From: a virus
Strand: one strand, 5' to 3'
DNA: 64,000 nucleotides
Virus record (IMG/VR): IMGVR_UViG_3300020045_007008
Span: 1 to 64,000 of that record
Both the position numbers and the translations under genes were made by a program. Shown here one piece after another: positions 29,580-58,756 of the stretch (positions within the stretch are counted from its first letter, which is position 1; every line of letters begins with the position of its first letter). The notes under the pieces are model-generated. The model worked only from the letters and a program-made list of their open reading frames with translations. It ran no database searches and was not told the DNA's origin.

Positions 29580-29831
29580 TTGGAAAAGACAAACTGTCCA
29601 AAATGCCAGCGAGATATATACGGCAGAGCAGACAACTTTAAATGCTATTCTTGCGGAGACTACAAACGCAATCATGACGGCAAGTTAATCCCCACTACTT
29701 GCACAAGTTGCTCACAGCCTTTAACTAAGGGCTACTACAACACAGATAAAGGATTTATTTGTCCAGCTTGTATAGACACAAAGTTTATCCAAGAAAACAA
29801 AGACCTAATATCCAAACTCTATCGGGGATAA
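29580..29831 (+). CDS. Hypothetical multi-zinc-finger protein
   Basis: AAGGAG SD, TTG start, four CxxC pairs. Confidence 0.6.
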   Translation: MEKTNCPKCQRDIYGRADNFKCYSCGDYKRNHDGKLIPTTCTSCSQPLTKGYYNTDKGFICPACIDTKFIQENKDLISKLYRG

Positions 29832-29845
29832 TATATCCCCCTTTT
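29824..29845 (+). terminator. Putative terminator
   Basis: GGGGATA-ata-TATCCCC then CTTTT. Confidence 0.55.
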
Positions 29846-30049
29846 AAAAGATTATTAAATTATAATATGACCAAAAACCTAAAACCAATAATTAAATAAG
29901 TAATAAGTTTATGGAAAAGATGTTTAAATTAGTGGAAAGCCTTGAATCTTTAACAGAAAAAAAACTATTAATATTAATTATAGGTCTTCTTTTATCAAGA
30001 AAGGAAGACAGAAAAGAATTAGTAGAACAATTAACTAATCAATAAGTTT

Positions 30050-53787: not shown

Positions 53788-54534
53788 ATGAAAAAAAAGA
53801 TTGTTATTATTTCTGGAGGAATGGATTCAACTACACTGCTATATGATGTAGTGAATCAATTCTCATCAGAAAATGTGATTGCTTTAACATTTTTCTATGG
53901 TTCAAAACATAATGACCAAGAAATAAAGAGAGCAAAAATTAGTTGTCAAAAATTAAATGTTGAGCATAAATTATTTGATTTATCGTCAATATTTCAAAAT
54001 TTTAACTCATCATTATTAAAAAAAGAAGACAGTGAAATAATACCAGAGGGGCATTATGCAGAAGACAATATGAAAAAAACGGTTGTCCCATATCGAAATG
54101 GTATATTATTATCTATTGCAATTGGATTTGCTGAAGATTTAGATTGTGATTCAGTATATTATGGTGCTCACGCTGGTGACCATACTATTTATCCAGATTG
54201 TCGAGATGAGTTTGTGAAAGCATTTTCATTAGCATCAATATTAGGTACATATAATAGAGTGAAAGTAATTGCAAGTTATGAAAATATTGATAAATATGGA
54301 ATTCTACAGATAGGAAAAAAATTAAATATTAATTATATTGATACTTGGACGTGTTATAATGGAGAAGAAGCACCTTGCGGAAAATGTGGAAGTTGTACAG
54401 AAAGAGCTGAAGCATTCTATAAAATGAATATGAAAGACCCATTATATACAGATAAACAATGGCAAGATGTATTATTAAATCTTAAAAAATTAAACATAAT
54501 TGATAATACCAATTATCAACCTGAATTATTATGA
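53788..54534 (+). CDS. queC: 7-cyano-7-deazaguanine synthase
   Basis: SGGMDS, VPYRN, YPDCR, TWTCY, CGKCGSC.ER. Confidence 0.95.
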   Translation: MKKKIVIISGGMDSTTLLYDVVNQFSSENVIALTFFYGSKHNDQEIKRAKISCQKLNVEHKLFDLSSIFQNFNSSLLKKEDSEIIPEGHYAEDNMKKTVVPYRNGILLSIAIGFAEDLDCDSVYYGAHAGDHTIYPDCRDEFVKAFSLASILGTYNRVKVIASYENIDKYGILQIGKKLNINYIDTWTCYNGEEAPCGKCGSCTERAEAFYKMNMKDPLYTDKQWQDVLLNLKKLNIIDNTNYQPELL

Positions 54535-55118
54535 GAAATAAAGAAAAATTAGAACAAATTTCAAAATCTCTAATAGAAGAAATCGGAGAAAAATCAGACA
54601 GACAAGGATTAATTGGTACACCAGATAGAATGGCAAGAATGTTTTTAGAAGTTTTTAGAGGATATGATGAAACACAAAAACCCAAAATAACAACATTTAA
54701 AAATGGAACTGATGGAATAGTATATGACCAAATTATTACTGATACGGGTTCATATTATTCATATTGTGAACATCATATGGTACCATTCTTCGGTCAATAT
54801 TGGTTTGCATATATTCCACACCCAGACGGAAAAATTTTAGGATTAAGTAAAGTTGCAAGAATCGTTGATTATTATTCGGCTAAAATGCAAATACAGGAAA
54901 GATTAGTTCAAGATATCGTGAATAATCTATGGAGTGCTTTAATAGATAGTAATAGAATTGAACCTATAGGAATGGCTTTGGTAATGAAAGGTGAACATTT
55001 ATGTAAATCAATGCGTGGTGTGAAAAAAAGAGGAACAATGACGACATCTGATTTGAGGGGTTGTTTTAAAACTGAAGCTGATACAAGAAAAGAATTTTTT
55101 GACTTGATAAAATTATGA
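54531..55118 (+). CDS. folE: GTP cyclohydrolase I
   Basis: GL..TP.R, CEHHMVPF, GLSKVAR, QIQERL, HLCKSMRGV. Confidence 0.95.
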   Translation: MRNKEKLEQISKSLIEEIGEKSDRQGLIGTPDRMARMFLEVFRGYDETQKPKITTFKNGTDGIVYDQIITDTGSYYSYCEHHMVPFFGQYWFAYIPHPDGKILGLSKVARIVDYYSAKMQIQERLVQDIVNNLWSALIDSNRIEPIGMALVMKGEHLCKSMRGVKKRGTMTTSDLRGCFKTEADTRKEFFDLIKL

Positions 55119-55609
55119 AAGAAAAATTAGAGAAATTATTACAACAAATAAAAGAAAGAAAAGGTGGTGCTGATTCATCAAAATCACATTTAAAGAGTGC
55201 ATTATATGATTGGAGAATTGAAGATAACTGGTCTAGAAATAATTGCTTTGTAATAAGTGAAAATGATTTGGGATTTGCATTTTATACATTCACGATACGA
55301 GAGCCTAGACACTGCACATTAAGACATATATTCACATTAGAAGAAGCAAGAGGTCAAGGAATTGGAAAGAAACTAATGAATAGAATTGAAGAGCATATGA
55401 AGAGAGATAGAGTTGAGATAATGCGATTTTATGCAAATAAGCCAGCTATTAAATTCTATGAAAAATTAGGATATACTTGGCTCGGTGAAAATAAACAAGG
55501 ATTGCCATTCACATATTGTGATATATGTACAAAGAAGAATATTAATAATCAACAACAATTGAAAAAAATATTCAAAATTTATAATCAAAATAATTTATTT
55601 AATATCTAA
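55115..55609 (+). CDS. GNAT-family acyltransferase inside the deazaguanine operon
   Basis: IFTLEEARGQGIGKKLM (acetyl-CoA motif A), N.PAIKFYEKLGY (motif B). Confidence 0.85.
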   Translation: MKEKLEKLLQQIKERKGGADSSKSHLKSALYDWRIEDNWSRNNCFVISENDLGFAFYTFTIREPRHCTLRHIFTLEEARGQGIGKKLMNRIEEHMKRDRVEIMRFYANKPAIKFYEKLGYTWLGENKQGLPFTYCDICTKKNINNQQQLKKIFKIYNQNNLFNI

Positions 55610-55614
55610 ATTTT

Positions 55615-56094
55615 ATGTCAGATACAAAAAGTTTAAAATCATTAGGTTCTAAATCAACAAAATATGAATGTAATGGTGTCAATCCAGAATTATTGGAAGT
55701 ATTTGAAAATCAACACCAAAAAAATAATTATTTAATACCATTTATTCAACCAAGAGATGAATTTACTTCATTATGTCCTAAGACTGGGCAACCCGACCAC
55801 GCCGCTTTAGAAATTATATATATACCGAGAGAAGATTGTGTAGAATCAAAATCATTAAAGCTTTATTTAGTATCTTTTCGAAATAGCGGAGAATTTCACG
55901 AAGATGTCTGTAATAGAATAGCAGATGATTTAATTAGATTATTAAATCCTAAATATCTCAGAGTATATGGTGATTTTGCACCAAGAGGCAGTTTAGCAAT
56001 AAAACCACTTATTGAACGATGGAATATAGAAGAAGGTATAGAAAAACAAGATATAAAATTTTTAATTAATTCTTGGGATTTAAAGAAAAAATAA
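55615..56094 (+). CDS. queF: NADPH-dependent preQ0 reductase (unimodular)
   Basis: EFTSLCPKTGQPD, QueF motif ESKSLKLY, FHE, F.PRG. Confidence 0.93.
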   Translation: MSDTKSLKSLGSKSTKYECNGVNPELLEVFENQHQKNNYLIPFIQPRDEFTSLCPKTGQPDHAALEIIYIPREDCVESKSLKLYLVSFRNSGEFHEDVCNRIADDLIRLLNPKYLRVYGDFAPRGSLAIKPLIERWNIEEGIEKQDIKFLINSWDLKKK

Positions 56095-56095
56095 A

Positions 56096-57112
56096 ATGAA
56101 TAGTTTAAAAGATTTTAATTTATTTTATGCAGTTAGTGGACGAATGTTCTTAGAATATCTTCTTATCTGTAATGTTAAAAATATTCTTATTTCTTTTGCT
56201 TATTTAGACCCGTGGTCAATGAGTAATATAATGAAGCACAATAATATAAATTTAATTTGTGATTCTGGTGCATTTACTGCTTGGAATTTAAGTCAAAAAT
56301 ATAAAAAGAAGGGCGACCCGAATTGGCAAAAATATTTAGTTGATATTGATGCATATGTTGAATTTCTGAATAAACATAAAGATATAATTTATAGAGCAGT
56401 AAATATTGATGTCATCCCAGGTGAACAAGGTATAGAACCAACAGAGGAGCAAATAATTGAAGCGGCAGAGCAAGGGTGGAAAAATTATCAATATTTAAAA
56501 AGCAAAGGATTTGATACAATTCACGTATTTCATCAAGGTGAGCCAGATTGGGTTCTAGATAGAATGTTGAAAGAATGTGATTATATTGGAATAAGTCCAA
56601 GTAATGACTATAGCACAAAGAGAAAAAGATTGTGGATGGATAGAATTTTTAAATATATTGCTGATTCTAATAACCCAAAAATAAAAACTCACGGATTTGC
56701 TGTAACAAGTGAAGAATTAATGAATAATTATCCTTGGTTTTCAGTTGACTCAAGTAGCTGGTGTCTAAGTGCCGCGATGGGAAAAGTAAGAACAAAATAT
56801 GGTGAGTTATATGTAAGTGATAGGGGAAAATATGGAGATGATAATATTTTTTCAAAAACAGGTGAAGTGAGAAAAGAATTAGATAAATACTTCATAGAAA
56901 AAATTGGATATAATATATCAGCATTAGCAGGTGAACCAGAAAAAATAATTAAGAAATGTGAATGTGGAATCGAAAATGAAATCGAGATACCGTGCAGTCA
57001 ATATAAGACAAGAACATTAGCGAATATATTATATAATTTAGAATTTGAAGAAAAGAGACGAGCAAGCGGACCGAATTTGAATTTTATGAATCAAAATAAA
57101 TTATTTGAATAA
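56096..57112 (+). CDS. dpdA: DpdA-like DNA-guanine transglycosylase (TGT fold)
   Basis: DSGAFT, NIDVIPG, VFHQGE, YIGIS, HGF, SVDSSSW; last gene of the que operon. Confidence 0.8.
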   Translation: MNSLKDFNLFYAVSGRMFLEYLLICNVKNILISFAYLDPWSMSNIMKHNNINLICDSGAFTAWNLSQKYKKKGDPNWQKYLVDIDAYVEFLNKHKDIIYRAVNIDVIPGEQGIEPTEEQIIEAAEQGWKNYQYLKSKGFDTIHVFHQGEPDWVLDRMLKECDYIGISPSNDYSTKRKRLWMDRIFKYIADSNNPKIKTHGFAVTSEELMNNYPWFSVDSSSWCLSAAMGKVRTKYGELYVSDRGKYGDDNIFSKTGEVRKELDKYFIEKIGYNISALAGEPEKIIKKCECGIENEIEIPCSQYKTRTLANILYNLEFEEKRRASGPNLNFMNQNKLFE

Positions 57113-57154
57113 ATTTATATAAAATAATCACTAAGATTAAATAATATCTAAGTA

Positions 57155-57183
57155 TTGACATTTTTTATATAATATTATATAAT
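57155..57183 (+). promoter_or_regulatory. Sigma70-type promoter upstream of the non-coding RNA region
   Basis: TTGACA-17-TATAAT; ATCACTAAGATTAAA at 57127-41. Confidence 0.85.
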
Positions 57184-57192
57184 TAAAATATA

Positions 57193-57497
57193 ATAATCAG
57201 AATAATTGTATTATTCTTCGTAATATAATTATCCCAGCGAAGTTAATTCTTCCAAAATCTGATTATATGGGGGATTTATTTATATTTAGCCTCATTATAA
57301 AGTCATAAGTGTAATGTGGAAATTAGGTTAGGTCTTAATATATTAATTTATATTGAGACTAAATATAAATAAAATATTAAACCATTATAAGTTGTCCATT
57401 TTTTATCGGTTATAAGCCAGCTGCTTTAAATCGCAAACTAAATAGTTGGTGAATTGCGCATAACAATAACTGCCTTAGCTCTAACTAGTTGGCAGTT
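57193..57497 (+). ncRNA. Array of stem-loop modules directly after a promoter
   Basis: Stems 57193-201/57258-66, 57275-89/57359-73, 57332-42/57349-59, 57468-74/57491-97. Confidence 0.5.
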
Positions 57498-57552
57498 CTA
57501 GTATATTGAAGAAATAAATATATGTCTACAACAAATTAAAATTTTTATTAAT

Positions 57553-57780
57553 ATGAGTAAAACAAAAGATTTATTAATAGAAGAATTAAATAAAGAAAAA
57601 GAATGCATATACTGTAAAGATTGTAAATATAAATATACAGGAAAAAAACTAAATAAAAGATTTGAAAAAGTATATGGAGAATATTTCGATGATAGATGTA
57701 ATCCATATTTTGATAATAAAGAGAATAATTGTAAATATTTTGAATCAAATATAAATTGGTTCTGGGGATTATTTAAATAG
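57553..57780 (+). CDS. Hypothetical Cys-rich protein
   Basis: YCKDCKY...C....N...NCKYFE. Confidence 0.55.
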   Translation: MSKTKDLLIEELNKEKECIYCKDCKYKYTGKKLNKRFEKVYGEYFDDRCNPYFDNKENNCKYFESNINWFWGLFK

Positions 57781-57840
57781 AATATTAACATTGATAAATA
57801 TATATGTTTTATACAAGAAAAAAATATAAAAAAAATTAAA

Positions 57841-58191
57841 TAGTATATAATGTTCAGAGGTGACTGAATAATCTATTAGTGAGTAGATAAGGTATAGCGA
57901 AAATTCATAGGGAATTAGTAGCTAGTTTATGAGTATATGACTTAATCATTACTAAAAGGTATCACTACCGAGAGGCTCCAAATAAACTTAATGAGCCAAT
58001 TATGCGTTAAGATGTTGATGTGCTGACTCCTAGGTTCGGTACAAAGATTGTATAATTTAGAGCAACAAATCTTAATCTTAAGATTAGCTCCTTATTGATA
58101 GAGTAGGCTCTATTGATTTGCAAAAATAAAAGATGAATAAGGTCTCATAATAGAGGAAAACCTACTCCTCTCCTCTGAACATTGTATATTA
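57841..58191 (+). ncRNA. Giant tRNA-like (expanded cloverleaf) RNA, about 350 nt
   Basis: 20-bp terminal stem with two G-U pairs; D-, anticodon-, variable- and T-like arms in tRNA order. Confidence 0.7.
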
Positions 58192-58474
58192 TAATATTAT
58201 GTCATATACTAAAGAAAAAGCAATAGAACAATTGAATAAAGAAAGAGAATTAAAATATTTATATTTTAATTATTTTAGACTATTGTTTCAAAAACTATTG
58301 AATAGATGATATGAGAATATATATAATTATTTACATATTAATGTATCTTTTTAATGTAATTGTTACTCCATTTATTTTTGGTGAAAAAAAATCATTCACT
58401 GAATTTAATCCTATTGAGTGGCTAGTGCATCTAGTATTTGATTTACCGATAATTTATTTTTTATTCAAAACATT

Positions 58475-58756
58475 ATGAAGAAAAATATTAAAGTAGTAGA
58501 AAAAATAGAATATATACTAGAAGATAAAGATATTAATATTCTAAAAGATTGTTTAAATTATTGTTTTCATAGAGCGACTAAACATAAAACACCGATGACT
58601 GGTAAAGATAATGATATAAATAGACTAAGACAAGATTTAGATATTATCGAAACAAGAGAAAATAAAAAAATAAAAATCCCAGTACACGATTGTAGTAATG
58701 ATTGTAGATGCAATAGAACAATAGATGATGAAAATATAAGTATGATATTTATTTAA
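58475..58756 (+). CDS. Hypothetical protein
   Basis: ORF in operon. Confidence 0.5.
   Translation: MKKNIKVVEKIEYILEDKDINILKDCLNYCFHRATKHKTPMTGKDNDINRLRQDLDIIETRENKKIKIPVHDCSNDCRCNRTIDDENISMIFI

What the first reader, a model, noticed from the sequence alone, without database searches (positions are those of the whole stretch)
57841..58191. Giant tRNA-like RNA: cloverleaf shell with a ~210-nt variable arm and a possible kissing loop
Seen: 57841-60 pairs with 58172-91 (20 bp; two G-U pairs favour a + strand RNA). Inside, in tRNA order: TG linker; D-like stem ACT/GGT whose loop carries an extra hairpin (ATCTATT/AGTAGAT); A; anticodon-like stem TAGC/GCTA (57895-98/57921-24) with an inner AATTC/GAATT hairpin and no normal anticodon loop; variable-arm stem TTATGAG/CTCATAA (57927-33/58144-50) enclosing several hairpins (GGTA/TACC, GGCTC/GAGCC, CCTTATT/AATAAGG, ATAGAG-tagg-CTCTAT); T-like stem AGAGG/CCTCT abutting the acceptor strand. 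Its loop CCTA is complementary to the TAGG hairpin loop. Inference: a class II tRNA-derived large ncRNA that cannot decode, possibly a decoy for tRNA-targeting defences, a scaffold or a ribozyme.
Basis: partly seen in the sequence, partly recalled or inferred. Interest (0 to 1): 0.86.

Follow-up and report, generated by a model that had tools for sequence, protein, structure and literature searches.

The report
Enlarged manA-type folded phage RNA
The flagged stretch is a real, evolutionarily maintained folded RNA of about 350 bases in an AT-rich phage; it is not a tRNA derivative but an enlarged, uncatalogued cousin of the phage "manA" RNA, which a 2026 preprint reports to build RNA-only cages.

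Summary
The + strand of window 57840-58192 folds far better than shuffles (z -4.7). It is conserved as a discrete non-coding module in three distinct phage sequences (window, L002 which is identical to L130, and L126), which are 75-80% alike. On these three, 25 of 110 predicted pairs keep pairing through changes on both sides. G-U cells outnumber A-C cells 38 to 1, so the RNA is read from the + strand.

It is not tRNA-like by any model. Its core has the layout of the manA RNA motif (Rfam RF01745): a 5-bp closing stem, a UG linker, the GUGACUGAAUAA-hairpin-AUAAGGUA module, and a 5-bp hairpin with a 10-nt loop abutting the 3' strand of the closing stem. manA is the best Rfam hit but lies far below threshold (13.2 and 20.0 bits against 55.2).

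The differences are a 224-nt central domain, a total of about 321 nt instead of about 150, and a clamp helix 15-16 bp longer.

My reading is a free-standing, enlarged manA-class RNA that probably self-associates through invariant loops, including a palindromic CCUAGG. Function is unknown and expression is untested.

This scan has already noted similar enlarged manA-like RNAs on other phage DNA.

The parts
57840..57860 (+). 5' strand of the 21-bp closing (clamp) helix. Its inner 5 nt, AGAGG (57856-60), correspond to manA P1.
   Evidence: helix 1 has 21 pairs, 98.4% of cells paired and 5 pairs changed on both sides. In 23 canonical manA-like RNAs P1 extends by only 0-1 further contiguous pairs.
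58172..58192 (+). 3' strand of the closing helix. CCUCU (58172-76) is the manA P1 3' strand.
57861..57893 (+). UG linker plus the manA hallmark module ACUGAAUAA - hairpin (57871-88) - AUAAGGU.
   Evidence: Rfam manA local hit at 57863-57893 (13.2 bits). The same module was seen in the alignments of the Rfam manA hits at L032 and L002. Helices 2 and 3 carry 3 pairs changed on both sides.
57895..57924 (+). Extra hairpin (UAGC...GCUA with an inner stem) between the module and the central domain.
   Evidence: Helices 4 and 5: 100% of cells paired, 4 pairs changed on both sides.
57927..58150 (+). 224-nt central multi-helix domain closed by UUAUGAG/CUCAUAA.
   Evidence: Helices 6-14. Helix 7 (57944-47 / 58132-35) is weak: 4 bp and no compensatory change.
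57974..57997 (+). Hairpin GGCUC/GAGCC with a 14-15-nt loop, CAAAUAAACUUAAU, that is nearly invariant.
   Evidence: the stem is invariant and the loop has one varying position and one inserted base among the three sequences. There is no covariation (helix 9: 5 of 5 pairs never vary).
57998..58057 (+). Long hairpin (9 + 12 bp) whose 11-nt loop (58026-36) carries the invariant palindrome CCUAGG (58029-34).
   Evidence: Helices 10 and 11 have 5 pairs changed on both sides while UCCUAGGUU in the loop is invariant. The self-duplex of the loop is -9.4 kcal/mol.
58060..58090 (+). Hairpin GAGC...GCUC with an inner stem.
   Evidence: Helices 12 and 13: 2 pairs changed on both sides.
58091..58120 (+). 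Hairpin with the 4-nt loop UAGG (58104-07), complementary to CCUA in the 3' hairpin loop.
   Evidence: Helix 14: 100% of cells paired, 3 pairs changed on both sides. Loop-loop pairing: 12 of 12 cells paired.
58117..58137 (+). Invariant A-rich stretch UUUGCAAAAAUAAAAGAUGAA. It is largely unpaired; its first four bases lie in helix 14 and four bases lie in the weak helix 7.
   Evidence: Identical in all three homologues.
58152..58171 (+). 3' hairpin (5-6 bp; loop AAAACCUACU with the 5-bp stem) directly abutting the closing helix. It matches the last hairpin of manA.
   Evidence: Helix 15: 100% of cells paired, 2 pairs changed on both sides. Hairpins with like loops (UAAACCUAAU, UGUAACCUAAU) stand at the same place in manA-like RNAs L115 and L089.
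57155..57183 (+). Nearest consensus sigma-70-type promoter (TTGACA-17-TATAAT, 12 of 12 matches). It is the likely source of the transcript that carries the element; this is inferred.
   Evidence: No promoter-like site is listed at the element itself, and 0 terminator-like sites are found in 57000-58600.

Best explanation
Window 57840-58192 (+) encodes a free-standing structured non-coding RNA of the manA class (Rfam RF01745), in an enlarged form.

Shown:
- It is a discrete conserved non-coding module with 15 helices kept by compensatory change.
- It is read from the + strand.
- Its core has the manA layout: a 5-bp P1, a UG linker, the ACUGAAUAA-hairpin-AUAAGGU module, and a terminal 5-bp hairpin with a 10-nt loop abutting the P1 3' strand.

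Different from manA:
- P1 is prolonged by 15-16 bp into a 21-bp clamp.
- One extra hairpin follows the module.
- The middle of the molecule is a 224-nt multi-helix domain.

Inferred mechanism:
- The RNA is made as part of a longer transcript from the consensus promoter at 57155-83.
- The clamp brings the two ends together. It may be a double-strand-specific (RNase III type) processing site or a stabiliser.
- The invariant loops serve as kissing-loop contacts between copies, as reported for short manA RNAs. These loops are the palindromic CCUAGG, the UAGG/CCUA pair and the 14-nt CAAAUAAACUUAAU loop. The RNA would then act as a self-assembling particle or scaffold during infection.

Its biological role is not known.
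For: Conservation as a module:
- Homologues are L002:449-803 and L126:10454-10809(-), and L130, which is identical to L002 over 355 of 355 positions.
- Identities are 268 of 356, 269 of 358 and 288 of 358.
- Upstream flanks do not align.

Structure:
- 97.2% of 325 cells are paired.
- 25 of 110 pairs changed on both sides, against 10.4 +/- 2.4 in shuffles (0 of 500 reach the observed value) and 0-5 in slid controls.

Strand: 38 G-U/U-G cells against 1 A-C cell, and + strand folding z -4.7.

Link to manA:
- manA is the top Rfam family at the locus in both searches: window 13.2 bits, E 1.1, positions 57863-93; L002 20.0 bits, E 0.0048.
- The module pattern taken from the window finds 118 viral contigs.
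- Of 19 such loci scanned, 5 are Rfam manA at gathering with the pattern inside the hit.
- A covariance model from 23 manA-like RNAs scores L002 at 52.1 bits, the window at 32.9 and L126 at 27.8.
- P1 plus an abutting hairpin is found at the same relative places, with a total of 321-325 nt against 143-170 nt in most others.

Self-assembly of manA by kissing loops: bioRxiv 10.64898/2026.07.01.735769 (passages read).

Invariant loops over covarying stems.

Single copy in the genome. No ORF of 30 aa or more on the + strand inside the element.
Against: - Rfam's manA model scores far below its gathering score of 55.2 bits. Its alignment beyond the 5' module is forced.
- My own model R1 is partly circular. 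Its training set was picked with a pattern copied from the window, so the module matches by construction.
- A sequence-only profile of the manA-like 3' hairpin does not single out the element: E 47 in the window, 1.0 in L002, 6.7 in L126.
- The order of helices between module and 3' hairpin differs from the manA consensus.
- Only three distinct sequences exist, and the structure was derived from them.
- The loop-loop contacts show no compensatory change.
- Expression, RNA ends, processing and oligomerisation are all untested here.
- An ORF starts 7-9 nt after the clamp in all three loci, which also fits a cis-acting leader.
Confidence: 0.65

Rival explanations
1. A new RNA family that only shares a recurrent structural module (ACUGAAUAA-hairpin-AUAAGGU next to a closing stem) with manA, without common descent or common function.
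For: - Rfam manA scores are 13.2 and 20.0 bits against a gathering score of 55.2.
- The centre of the molecule has a different helix order and no detectable sequence likeness to manA.
- The 3' hairpin profile is not significant.
- 14 of 19 pattern-bearing loci also lack a gathering-level manA hit, so the module is wider than the curated family.
Against: - Three features coincide in the same relative arrangement: P1 plus UG plus module at the 5' end, the hairpin abutting P1 at the 3' end, and loops such as AAACCUAAU shared with manA-like RNAs L115 and L089.
- Intermediate-sized manA-like RNAs of 296 and 307 nt exist (L116, L027).
Confidence: 0.15
2. A cis-acting leader or riboswitch that controls the ORF starting just after the clamp helix.
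For: - An ORF begins 7-9 nt after the helix in the window (58199), in L002 (812) and in L126 (10445, - strand).
- manA was originally proposed as a riboswitch candidate in 5' UTRs (PMC2864571, passages read).
Against: - The downstream ORFs differ. The window has a 36-aa ORF that looks like an N-terminal remnant. L002 has an unrelated 78-aa ORF. L126 has a 74-aa ORF whose homologue lies upstream of the element in the window.
- There is no terminator-like site (0 found).
- The 21-bp clamp is a static helix with no evident alternative pairing.
- manA-like modules lie beside tRNA or tmRNA genes: 39 of 83 within 150 nt, against 5.8% of random places. That fits RNA genes better than leaders.
Confidence: 0.1
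3. A tRNA-derived (class II-like) giant RNA acting as a decoy for tRNA-targeting defences.
For: - The order of stems recalls a cloverleaf.
- The hairpin abutting the closing helix could stack like a T arm on an acceptor stem.
- In L002 and L130 a tRNA-Leu ends 95 nt upstream on the same strand.
- manA-like RNAs cluster with tRNA genes.
- In L002, the best hit of the manA-like 3' hairpin profile is the T arm of tRNA-Leu, though at E 0.88 it is not significant.
Against: - ARAGORN and the Rfam tRNA and tmRNA models find nothing at the locus.
- By reading the sequence against tRNA consensus as I recall it, there is no D-loop or T-loop consensus, no anticodon loop and no discriminator or CCA.
- In the window the nearest tRNA is 7 kb away.
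- The layout is fully accounted for by manA.
Confidence: 0.06
4. A DNA-level element: a MITE-like inverted-repeat element, a cruciform, or a packaging or replication site.
For: It has terminal inverted repeats of 20-21 bp. It lies 2.6 kb upstream of the large terminase gene.
Against: - It is single copy in the 81-kb genome.
- No flanking direct repeat is evident in the sequence.
- It sits at the same place relative to the terminase in related phages, with the same divergence as the neighbouring genes.
- 14 internal helices are kept by covariation, and the 38:1 excess of G-U over A-C makes sense only for a + strand RNA.
Confidence: 0.03

Closest known systems
manA RNA motif (Rfam RF01745; Weinberg et al. 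2010, PMC2864571; cryo-EM preprint 10.64898/2026.07.01.735769)
   Same: - Phage-borne structured RNA.
- A 5-bp closing stem, followed by UG and the ACUGAAUAA-hairpin-UAAGGU module.
- A last hairpin of 5 bp with a 10-13-nt loop that directly abuts the 3' strand of the closing stem.
- Conserved hairpin loops with mutual complementarity.
- Best Rfam hit at the locus.
   Different: - About 321 nt between the P1 ends (351-353 nt with the clamp), against about 143-170 nt.
- P1 is prolonged to 21 bp, against 5-6 bp in 23 of 23 manA-like RNAs checked.
- An extra hairpin follows the module.
- A 224-nt central domain replaces the three-hairpin junction plus long hairpin of the consensus.
- Scores are 13-20 bits against a gathering score of 55.2.
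- In the window it is not in a tRNA array.
Other enlarged manA-like RNAs
   Same: They share the same 5' module, a P1, an abutting 3' hairpin and a size of about 300-400 nt. Earlier notes also describe long clamp helices of 15 and 24 bp (AI notes that I did not check).
   Different: There is no detectable sequence likeness to them outside the module. nhmmer and blastn of the element against all loci held (L002-L127) hit only L002 and L126 over its length. The central domains appear to be independent elaborations.
ROOL, GOLLD, OLE and other large bacterial or phage RNAs that form homo-oligomers
   Same: They are large ornate non-coding RNAs, often phage-associated. The preprint's introduction lists them among RNAs whose cryo-EM structures revised the view that natural RNA assemblies are rare.
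   Different: No Rfam match to any of them at E <= 10 in the 1-kb search. This element is smaller and has a different architecture.
tRNA and tmRNA
   Same: A closing helix with an abutting hairpin, and a neighbourhood of tRNA genes in L002 and L130.
   Different: No model match. No anticodon arm, no tag reading frame, no CCA.

Membership tests
manA RNA (RF01745) | Score at or above Rfam's gathering score (55.2 bits) | tested here: not met
   Window 13.2 bits, E 1.1. L002 homologue 20.0 bits, E 0.0048. No hit at gathering.
manA RNA (RF01745) | Short closing stem P1 followed by UG and the conserved module aCUGAAUAA - hairpin - UAAgGu | tested here: met
   AGAGG-UG-ACUGAAUAA-hairpin-AUAAGGU at 57856-57893. 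It is aligned to model positions 25-60 and to my model R1 from position 1. Pairs are kept by covariation (helices 1-3).
manA RNA (RF01745) | Last hairpin (5 bp, loop of about 10-13 nt) directly abutting the 3' strand of P1 | tested here: met
   58152-58171 abuts 58172. The likeness is structural. A sequence profile of this part alone is not significant.
manA RNA (RF01745) | Central part: a junction of three hairpins, then one long hairpin (model positions about 68-165) | tested here: not met
   Here there is one extra hairpin (57895-57924) and then a 224-nt domain with at least six hairpins. Rfam's alignment of this part in L002 is forced and has low posterior probability.
manA RNA (RF01745) | Size of about 140-190 nt | tested here: not met
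   321 nt from P1 to P1 in the window and 325 in L002/L130, against 143-170 for most manA-like RNAs found.
manA RNA (RF01745) | Homo-oligomerisation through kissing loops (preprint 10.64898/2026.07.01.735769) | not testable with these tools
   Only sequence hints: an invariant palindromic CCUAGG loop, and CCUA/UAGG loops paired in 12 of 12 cells.
tRNA / tmRNA | Match to tRNA or tmRNA covariance models, or to ARAGORN | tested here: not met
   ARAGORN finds 2 tRNAs elsewhere and none here. Rfam tRNA and tmRNA give no hit at the locus.
GOLLD, ROOL, HEARO, OLE, RNase P, group I/II introns | Match to the Rfam model | tested here: not met
   None is among the 5 matches at E <= 10 in 57500-58500.
MITE-like DNA element | Multiple copies and a target-site duplication | tested here: not met
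   One copy in the genome. Flanks show no direct repeat.

The most novel reading that the evidence does not exclude
The element is the subunit of an RNA-only assembly with a geometry not yet seen.

The manA core would supply the known pentamer-type contacts, with the UAGG/CCUA loops as the counterpart of a manA kissing pair. The added domain would contribute a two-fold contact through the palindromic CCUAGG loop. Copies would thus link into larger lattices or cages during infection.

The 21-bp clamp would hold the two ends together for cutting and perhaps for joining into a circle by the phage's own RNA repair enzymes. An RNA ligase and a PNKP were noted at 46-50 kb by another reader, and I did not check them.

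On this reading manA-type RNAs are products in their own right that travel with phage tRNA genes, not gene switches.
Probability: 0.2. Interest if true: 0.85.

Novelty: new variant of a known kind. Interest (0 to 1): 0.55.

Why it matters
manA has been an orphan 'riboswitch candidate' since 2010. A 2026 preprint reports that short manA RNAs build 8-, 10- and 60-subunit RNA-only particles.

This element shows that the manA core can carry a central domain of more than 200 nt and a long clamp helix while staying under strong selection for structure. Rfam's model misses such forms: here 14 of 19 loci that carry the hallmark module had no gathering-level hit.

The enlarged forms offer natural variants for asking which loops set the stoichiometry of the assemblies.

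Their setting also argues that these are free-standing RNA genes. In my set, 39 of 83 modules lie within 150 nt of a same-strand tRNA or tmRNA gene.

This particular lineage is rare, with three distinct sequences found, and comes from a very AT-rich phage (27.5% G+C).

Tried and rejected
**Searches for more homologues**
- blastn (distant mode) against 50,697 GenBank phages found no match.
- I ran six viral-contig scans and one metagenome scan. Beyond L002 (which is L128), L130 and L126 they gave only chance hits.
- L129 and L127 lie in coding sequence.
- None of the 10 new loci matches the element profile (best nhmmer E 0.66), and several look like coding sequence by eye.
- L003 has the related terminase, but its contig ends 733 nt upstream, so the place of the element is missing.

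**Expression**
- No RNA holder was listed.
- The two DNA runs laid held only short contigs on the AT-rich flanks and nothing across the element.

**Own promoter**
- TATAAT at 57846-51 lies inside the 5' arm.
- It has no -35 and is not among the 21 promoter-like sites.
- TATATAAT occurs 44 + 36 times in this genome.

**Loop-loop covariation in canonical manA-like RNAs**
- I tested the last loop against the loop of the hairpin before it.
- 12 of 22 have 4 or more Watson-Crick pairs, against 51% with shuffled loops.
- The unrestricted test was also flat: a mean of 4.43 against 4.34.
- I therefore cannot claim that the CCUA/UAGG pair is the counterpart of a particular manA kissing pair.

**3' hairpin profile**
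- It is not significant.

**Model of the whole element**
- I did not try a covariance model of the whole 378-column element.

**Papers**
- PMC2864571, PMC9964418 and the preprint were read as passages found with 'find'.
- The other titles were seen as listings only.
- In those three searches of the held library I saw no title on enlarged manA forms or on a manA-tRNA link, and I opened none of the other papers.
- Supplements are closed. The preprint's supplementary figures, which define loops L3-L9 and the two manA groups, could bear on my mapping of loops.

Full report
**Setting.** The window is part of a complete 81,449-bp virus record with direct terminal repeats and 27.5% G+C. The flagged stretch lies in a 418-nt gap between a 75-aa ORF (57553-57780) and a 36-aa ORF (58199-58309). 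No + strand ORF of 30 aa or more lies inside it.

Upstream are GTP cyclohydrolase I, a GNAT, QueF and a 338-aa protein with no Pfam match. Downstream are small ORFs, a YopX protein and the large terminase.

**Observation.** The two ends pair over 20-21 bp. The + strand folds to -96.9 kcal/mol against -71.2 +/- 5.5 for shuffles (z -4.7). The - strand gives -78.2 (z -3.3).

All but one are kept in the comparative structure described below.

**Homologues.** A terminase-based search brought in L002, which holds a 78%-identical copy of the element at 449-803. A 21-mer search brought in L126 (10454-10809, - strand). A metagenome scan added L130, whose element is identical to that of L002 (355 of 355).

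Pairwise identities among the three distinct sequences are 75-80%. This is about the same as the neighbouring terminase DNA (77-79%).

Conservation begins and ends at the terminal helix, and the upstream flanks do not align. Downstream, L126 keeps the same gene neighbourhood as the window while L002 has an unrelated ORF. The element is single copy in its genome.

Further patterns and scans gave only chance hits. GenBank phages gave nothing. This is a rare lineage.

**Structure.** RNAalifold on the three sequences predicts 110 pairs in 15 helices. The counts on that structure are:

| Measure | Observed | Shuffle control | Slid controls |
|---|---|---|---|
| Cells paired (of 325) | 97.2% | 91.1% mean | 38-45% |
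| Pairs changed on both sides | 25 | 10.4 +/- 2.4 (0 of 500 reach 25) | 0-5 |

The structure was derived from these same sequences, which flatters it. The margin is nonetheless large, and 12 of 15 helices carry at least one compensatory change.

G-U or U-G cells number 38 against a single A-C cell. This makes sense only if the + strand is the RNA, and it argues against a DNA-level inverted repeat.

It has 81% of cells paired and no compensatory change (slide -1 row, the correct register). Its 5' strand belongs to a better-supported hairpin (helix 14).

**What it is.** No Rfam family reaches its threshold at the locus. In the permissive search the best family is manA (RF01745). The hit is local, at 57863-57893, with 13.2 bits and E 1.1. 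The L002 copy gives 20.0 bits and E 0.0048, again the top family.

I turned the matched module into a pattern (GACTGAATAA, a 12-30 nt gap, ATAAGGTA). It occurs on 118 viral contigs. Including L130, that is 119 instances, and by a crude test the gap forms a hairpin of 4 bp or more in 83 of them.

Of 19 such loci scanned with Rfam, 5 carry a gathering-level manA hit that contains the pattern (L032, L065, L011, L083, L017). The other 14 do not.

The manA consensus reads as follows:
- a 5-bp closing stem;
- UG;
- aCUGAAUAA-hairpin-UAAgGu;
- a junction of three hairpins;
- a long hairpin;
- a 5-bp hairpin with an 11-nt loop that abuts the 3' strand of the closing stem.

The element has the same beginning (AGAGG-UG-ACUGAAUAA-hairpin-AUAAGGU). 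It also has the same end (AGAGG-AAAACCUACU-CCUCU directly followed by CCUCU). Its last loop resembles those of some manA-like RNAs, such as UAAACCUAAU in L115 and UGUAACCUAAU in L089.

A covariance model built from 23 manA-like RNAs scores L002 at 52.1 bits, the window at 32.9 and L126 at 27.8. That training set was selected with a pattern taken from the window, so the module matches by construction. Only the excess in L002, where CUUAGUAG aligns to the consensus CUuAgcaG, is independent.

A profile of the 3' hairpin alone is not significant.

I therefore file the element as working like, and probably descended from, manA. It fails the formal Rfam membership test and the test of the central architecture.

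**Differences from manA.**
- The distance from P1 to P1 is 321 nt (325 in L002/L130), against 143-170 nt for most manA-like RNAs.
- The closing stem continues for 15-16 more pairs, with 5 of its 21 pairs changed on both sides. In 23 of 23 manA-like RNAs checked it continues for 0-1 contiguous pairs.
- An extra hairpin (57895-57924) follows the module.
- The centre is a 224-nt domain closed by UUAUGAG/CUCAUAA.

Other long manA-like RNAs exist in my set (L116 at 296 nt, L027 at 307 nt). They share no sequence with this one outside the module.

**How it may work.** Shown: a conserved, strand-specific, elaborately folded RNA.

Inferred:
- *Transcription.* The only consensus promoter nearby is at 57155-83. 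There is none at the element and no terminator-like site. The RNA is therefore probably part of a longer transcript.
- *The clamp.* A two-turn duplex made from both flanks of a structured RNA is the classical substrate of RNase III, as in rRNA precursors (established knowledge, recalled). Processing is plausible but untested.
- *Self-association.* The preprint 10.64898/2026.07.01.735769 reports that manA RNAs form octamers, decamers and a 60-mer through kissing loops L5-L7', L8-L9' and L3-L8', around a conserved core with varying peripheral helices (passages read). Here several loops are invariant above covarying stems:
  - UCCUAGGUU, with the palindrome CCUAGG (self-duplex -9.4 kcal/mol);
  - the UAGG loop and the CCUA of the last loop (12 of 12 cells paired, one change to G-U);
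  - the 14-nt loop CAAAUAAACUUAAU.

These loops are the natural candidates for contacts within or between molecules. My attempt to show loop-loop covariation in the canonical set failed.

**Rivals.**
- *Cis-acting leader.* It is favoured by the ORF that starts 7-9 nt after the clamp in all three loci. The downstream ORFs are not the same gene, however, and there is no expression platform.
- *tRNA-derived decoy.* It has no model support.
- *DNA element.* It is excluded by single copy, internal covariation and the G-U asymmetry.
- *Unrelated family sharing only the module.* This remains possible, at about 0.15.

**Wider observation.** In my set, 39 of 83 hairpin-bearing modules lie within 150 nt of a same-strand tRNA or tmRNA gene, against 5.8% of random places in the same loci. 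The loci are redundant, so these counts are not independent events.

In L017 and L065 the manA hit starts 11-14 nt after a phage tmRNA hit. In L002/L130 a tRNA-Leu ends 95 nt before the element. In the window the nearest tRNA is 7 kb away.

Three searches of the held paper library listed no title on this link or on enlarged manA forms.

Earlier notes of this scan describe several enlarged manA-like RNAs in tRNA arrays of other phages. Some have long clamps, and one has joined ends in RNA data. I reached the manA reading before seeing these notes. They are AI notes that I did not check.

**Verdict.** The tRNA reading is not supported. The best reading is an enlarged, uncatalogued variant of the manA class. 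Function is unknown and self-assembly is plausible.

Noticed in passing
window 57155-57545: A 12-of-12 consensus promoter (57155-83) fires into about 360 nt without a credible ORF. The stretch contains a 33-nt inverted repeat (57275-57307 / 57341-57373) and folds with z -3.3. blastn found no likeness to it in L002, L126 or L130, so it has no comparative support.
   Followed up: partly
window 57543-57611 and 58189-58257; L126:10221-10445(-): The 75-aa ORF upstream of the element and the 36-aa ORF downstream share their first ~21 residues (12 of 21 identical; a 69-nt direct repeat at 71%). In L126 the full-length homologue (74 aa) lies downstream of the element. This suggests a local duplication or rearrangement around the RNA gene in the window's phage.
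   Followed up: partly
loci L009-L125 (viral contigs): The module GACUGAAUAA-hairpin-AUAAGGUA is widespread. 39 of 83 hairpin-bearing instances lie within 150 nt of a same-strand tRNA or tmRNA gene, against 5.8% of random places. 14 of 19 loci scanned have no gathering-level Rfam manA hit, so many manA-like RNAs are uncatalogued.
   Followed up: partly
L017:921-1446 and L065:1-304(-): A phage-borne permuted or alpha-type tmRNA hit is followed after 11-14 nt by a manA RNA hit on the same strand.
   Followed up: no
L116:7367-7662(+) and L027:7182-7488(-): Two other long manA-like RNAs (296 and 307 nt) with the same 5' module, P1 and abutting 3' hairpin. L116 appears to carry a second module-like stretch (GGCUGAAUAA) near its 3' end.
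   Followed up: no
window 29806-29867 (-): Weak match to my manA-like model R1 (15 bits, E 0.067). Probably chance.
   Followed up: no
window 54531-57112: GTP cyclohydrolase I, a GNAT acetyltransferase and QueF stand in a row, followed by a 338-aa protein without a Pfam match. This is a 7-deazaguanine pathway with an embedded GNAT, also noted by another reader.
   Followed up: no
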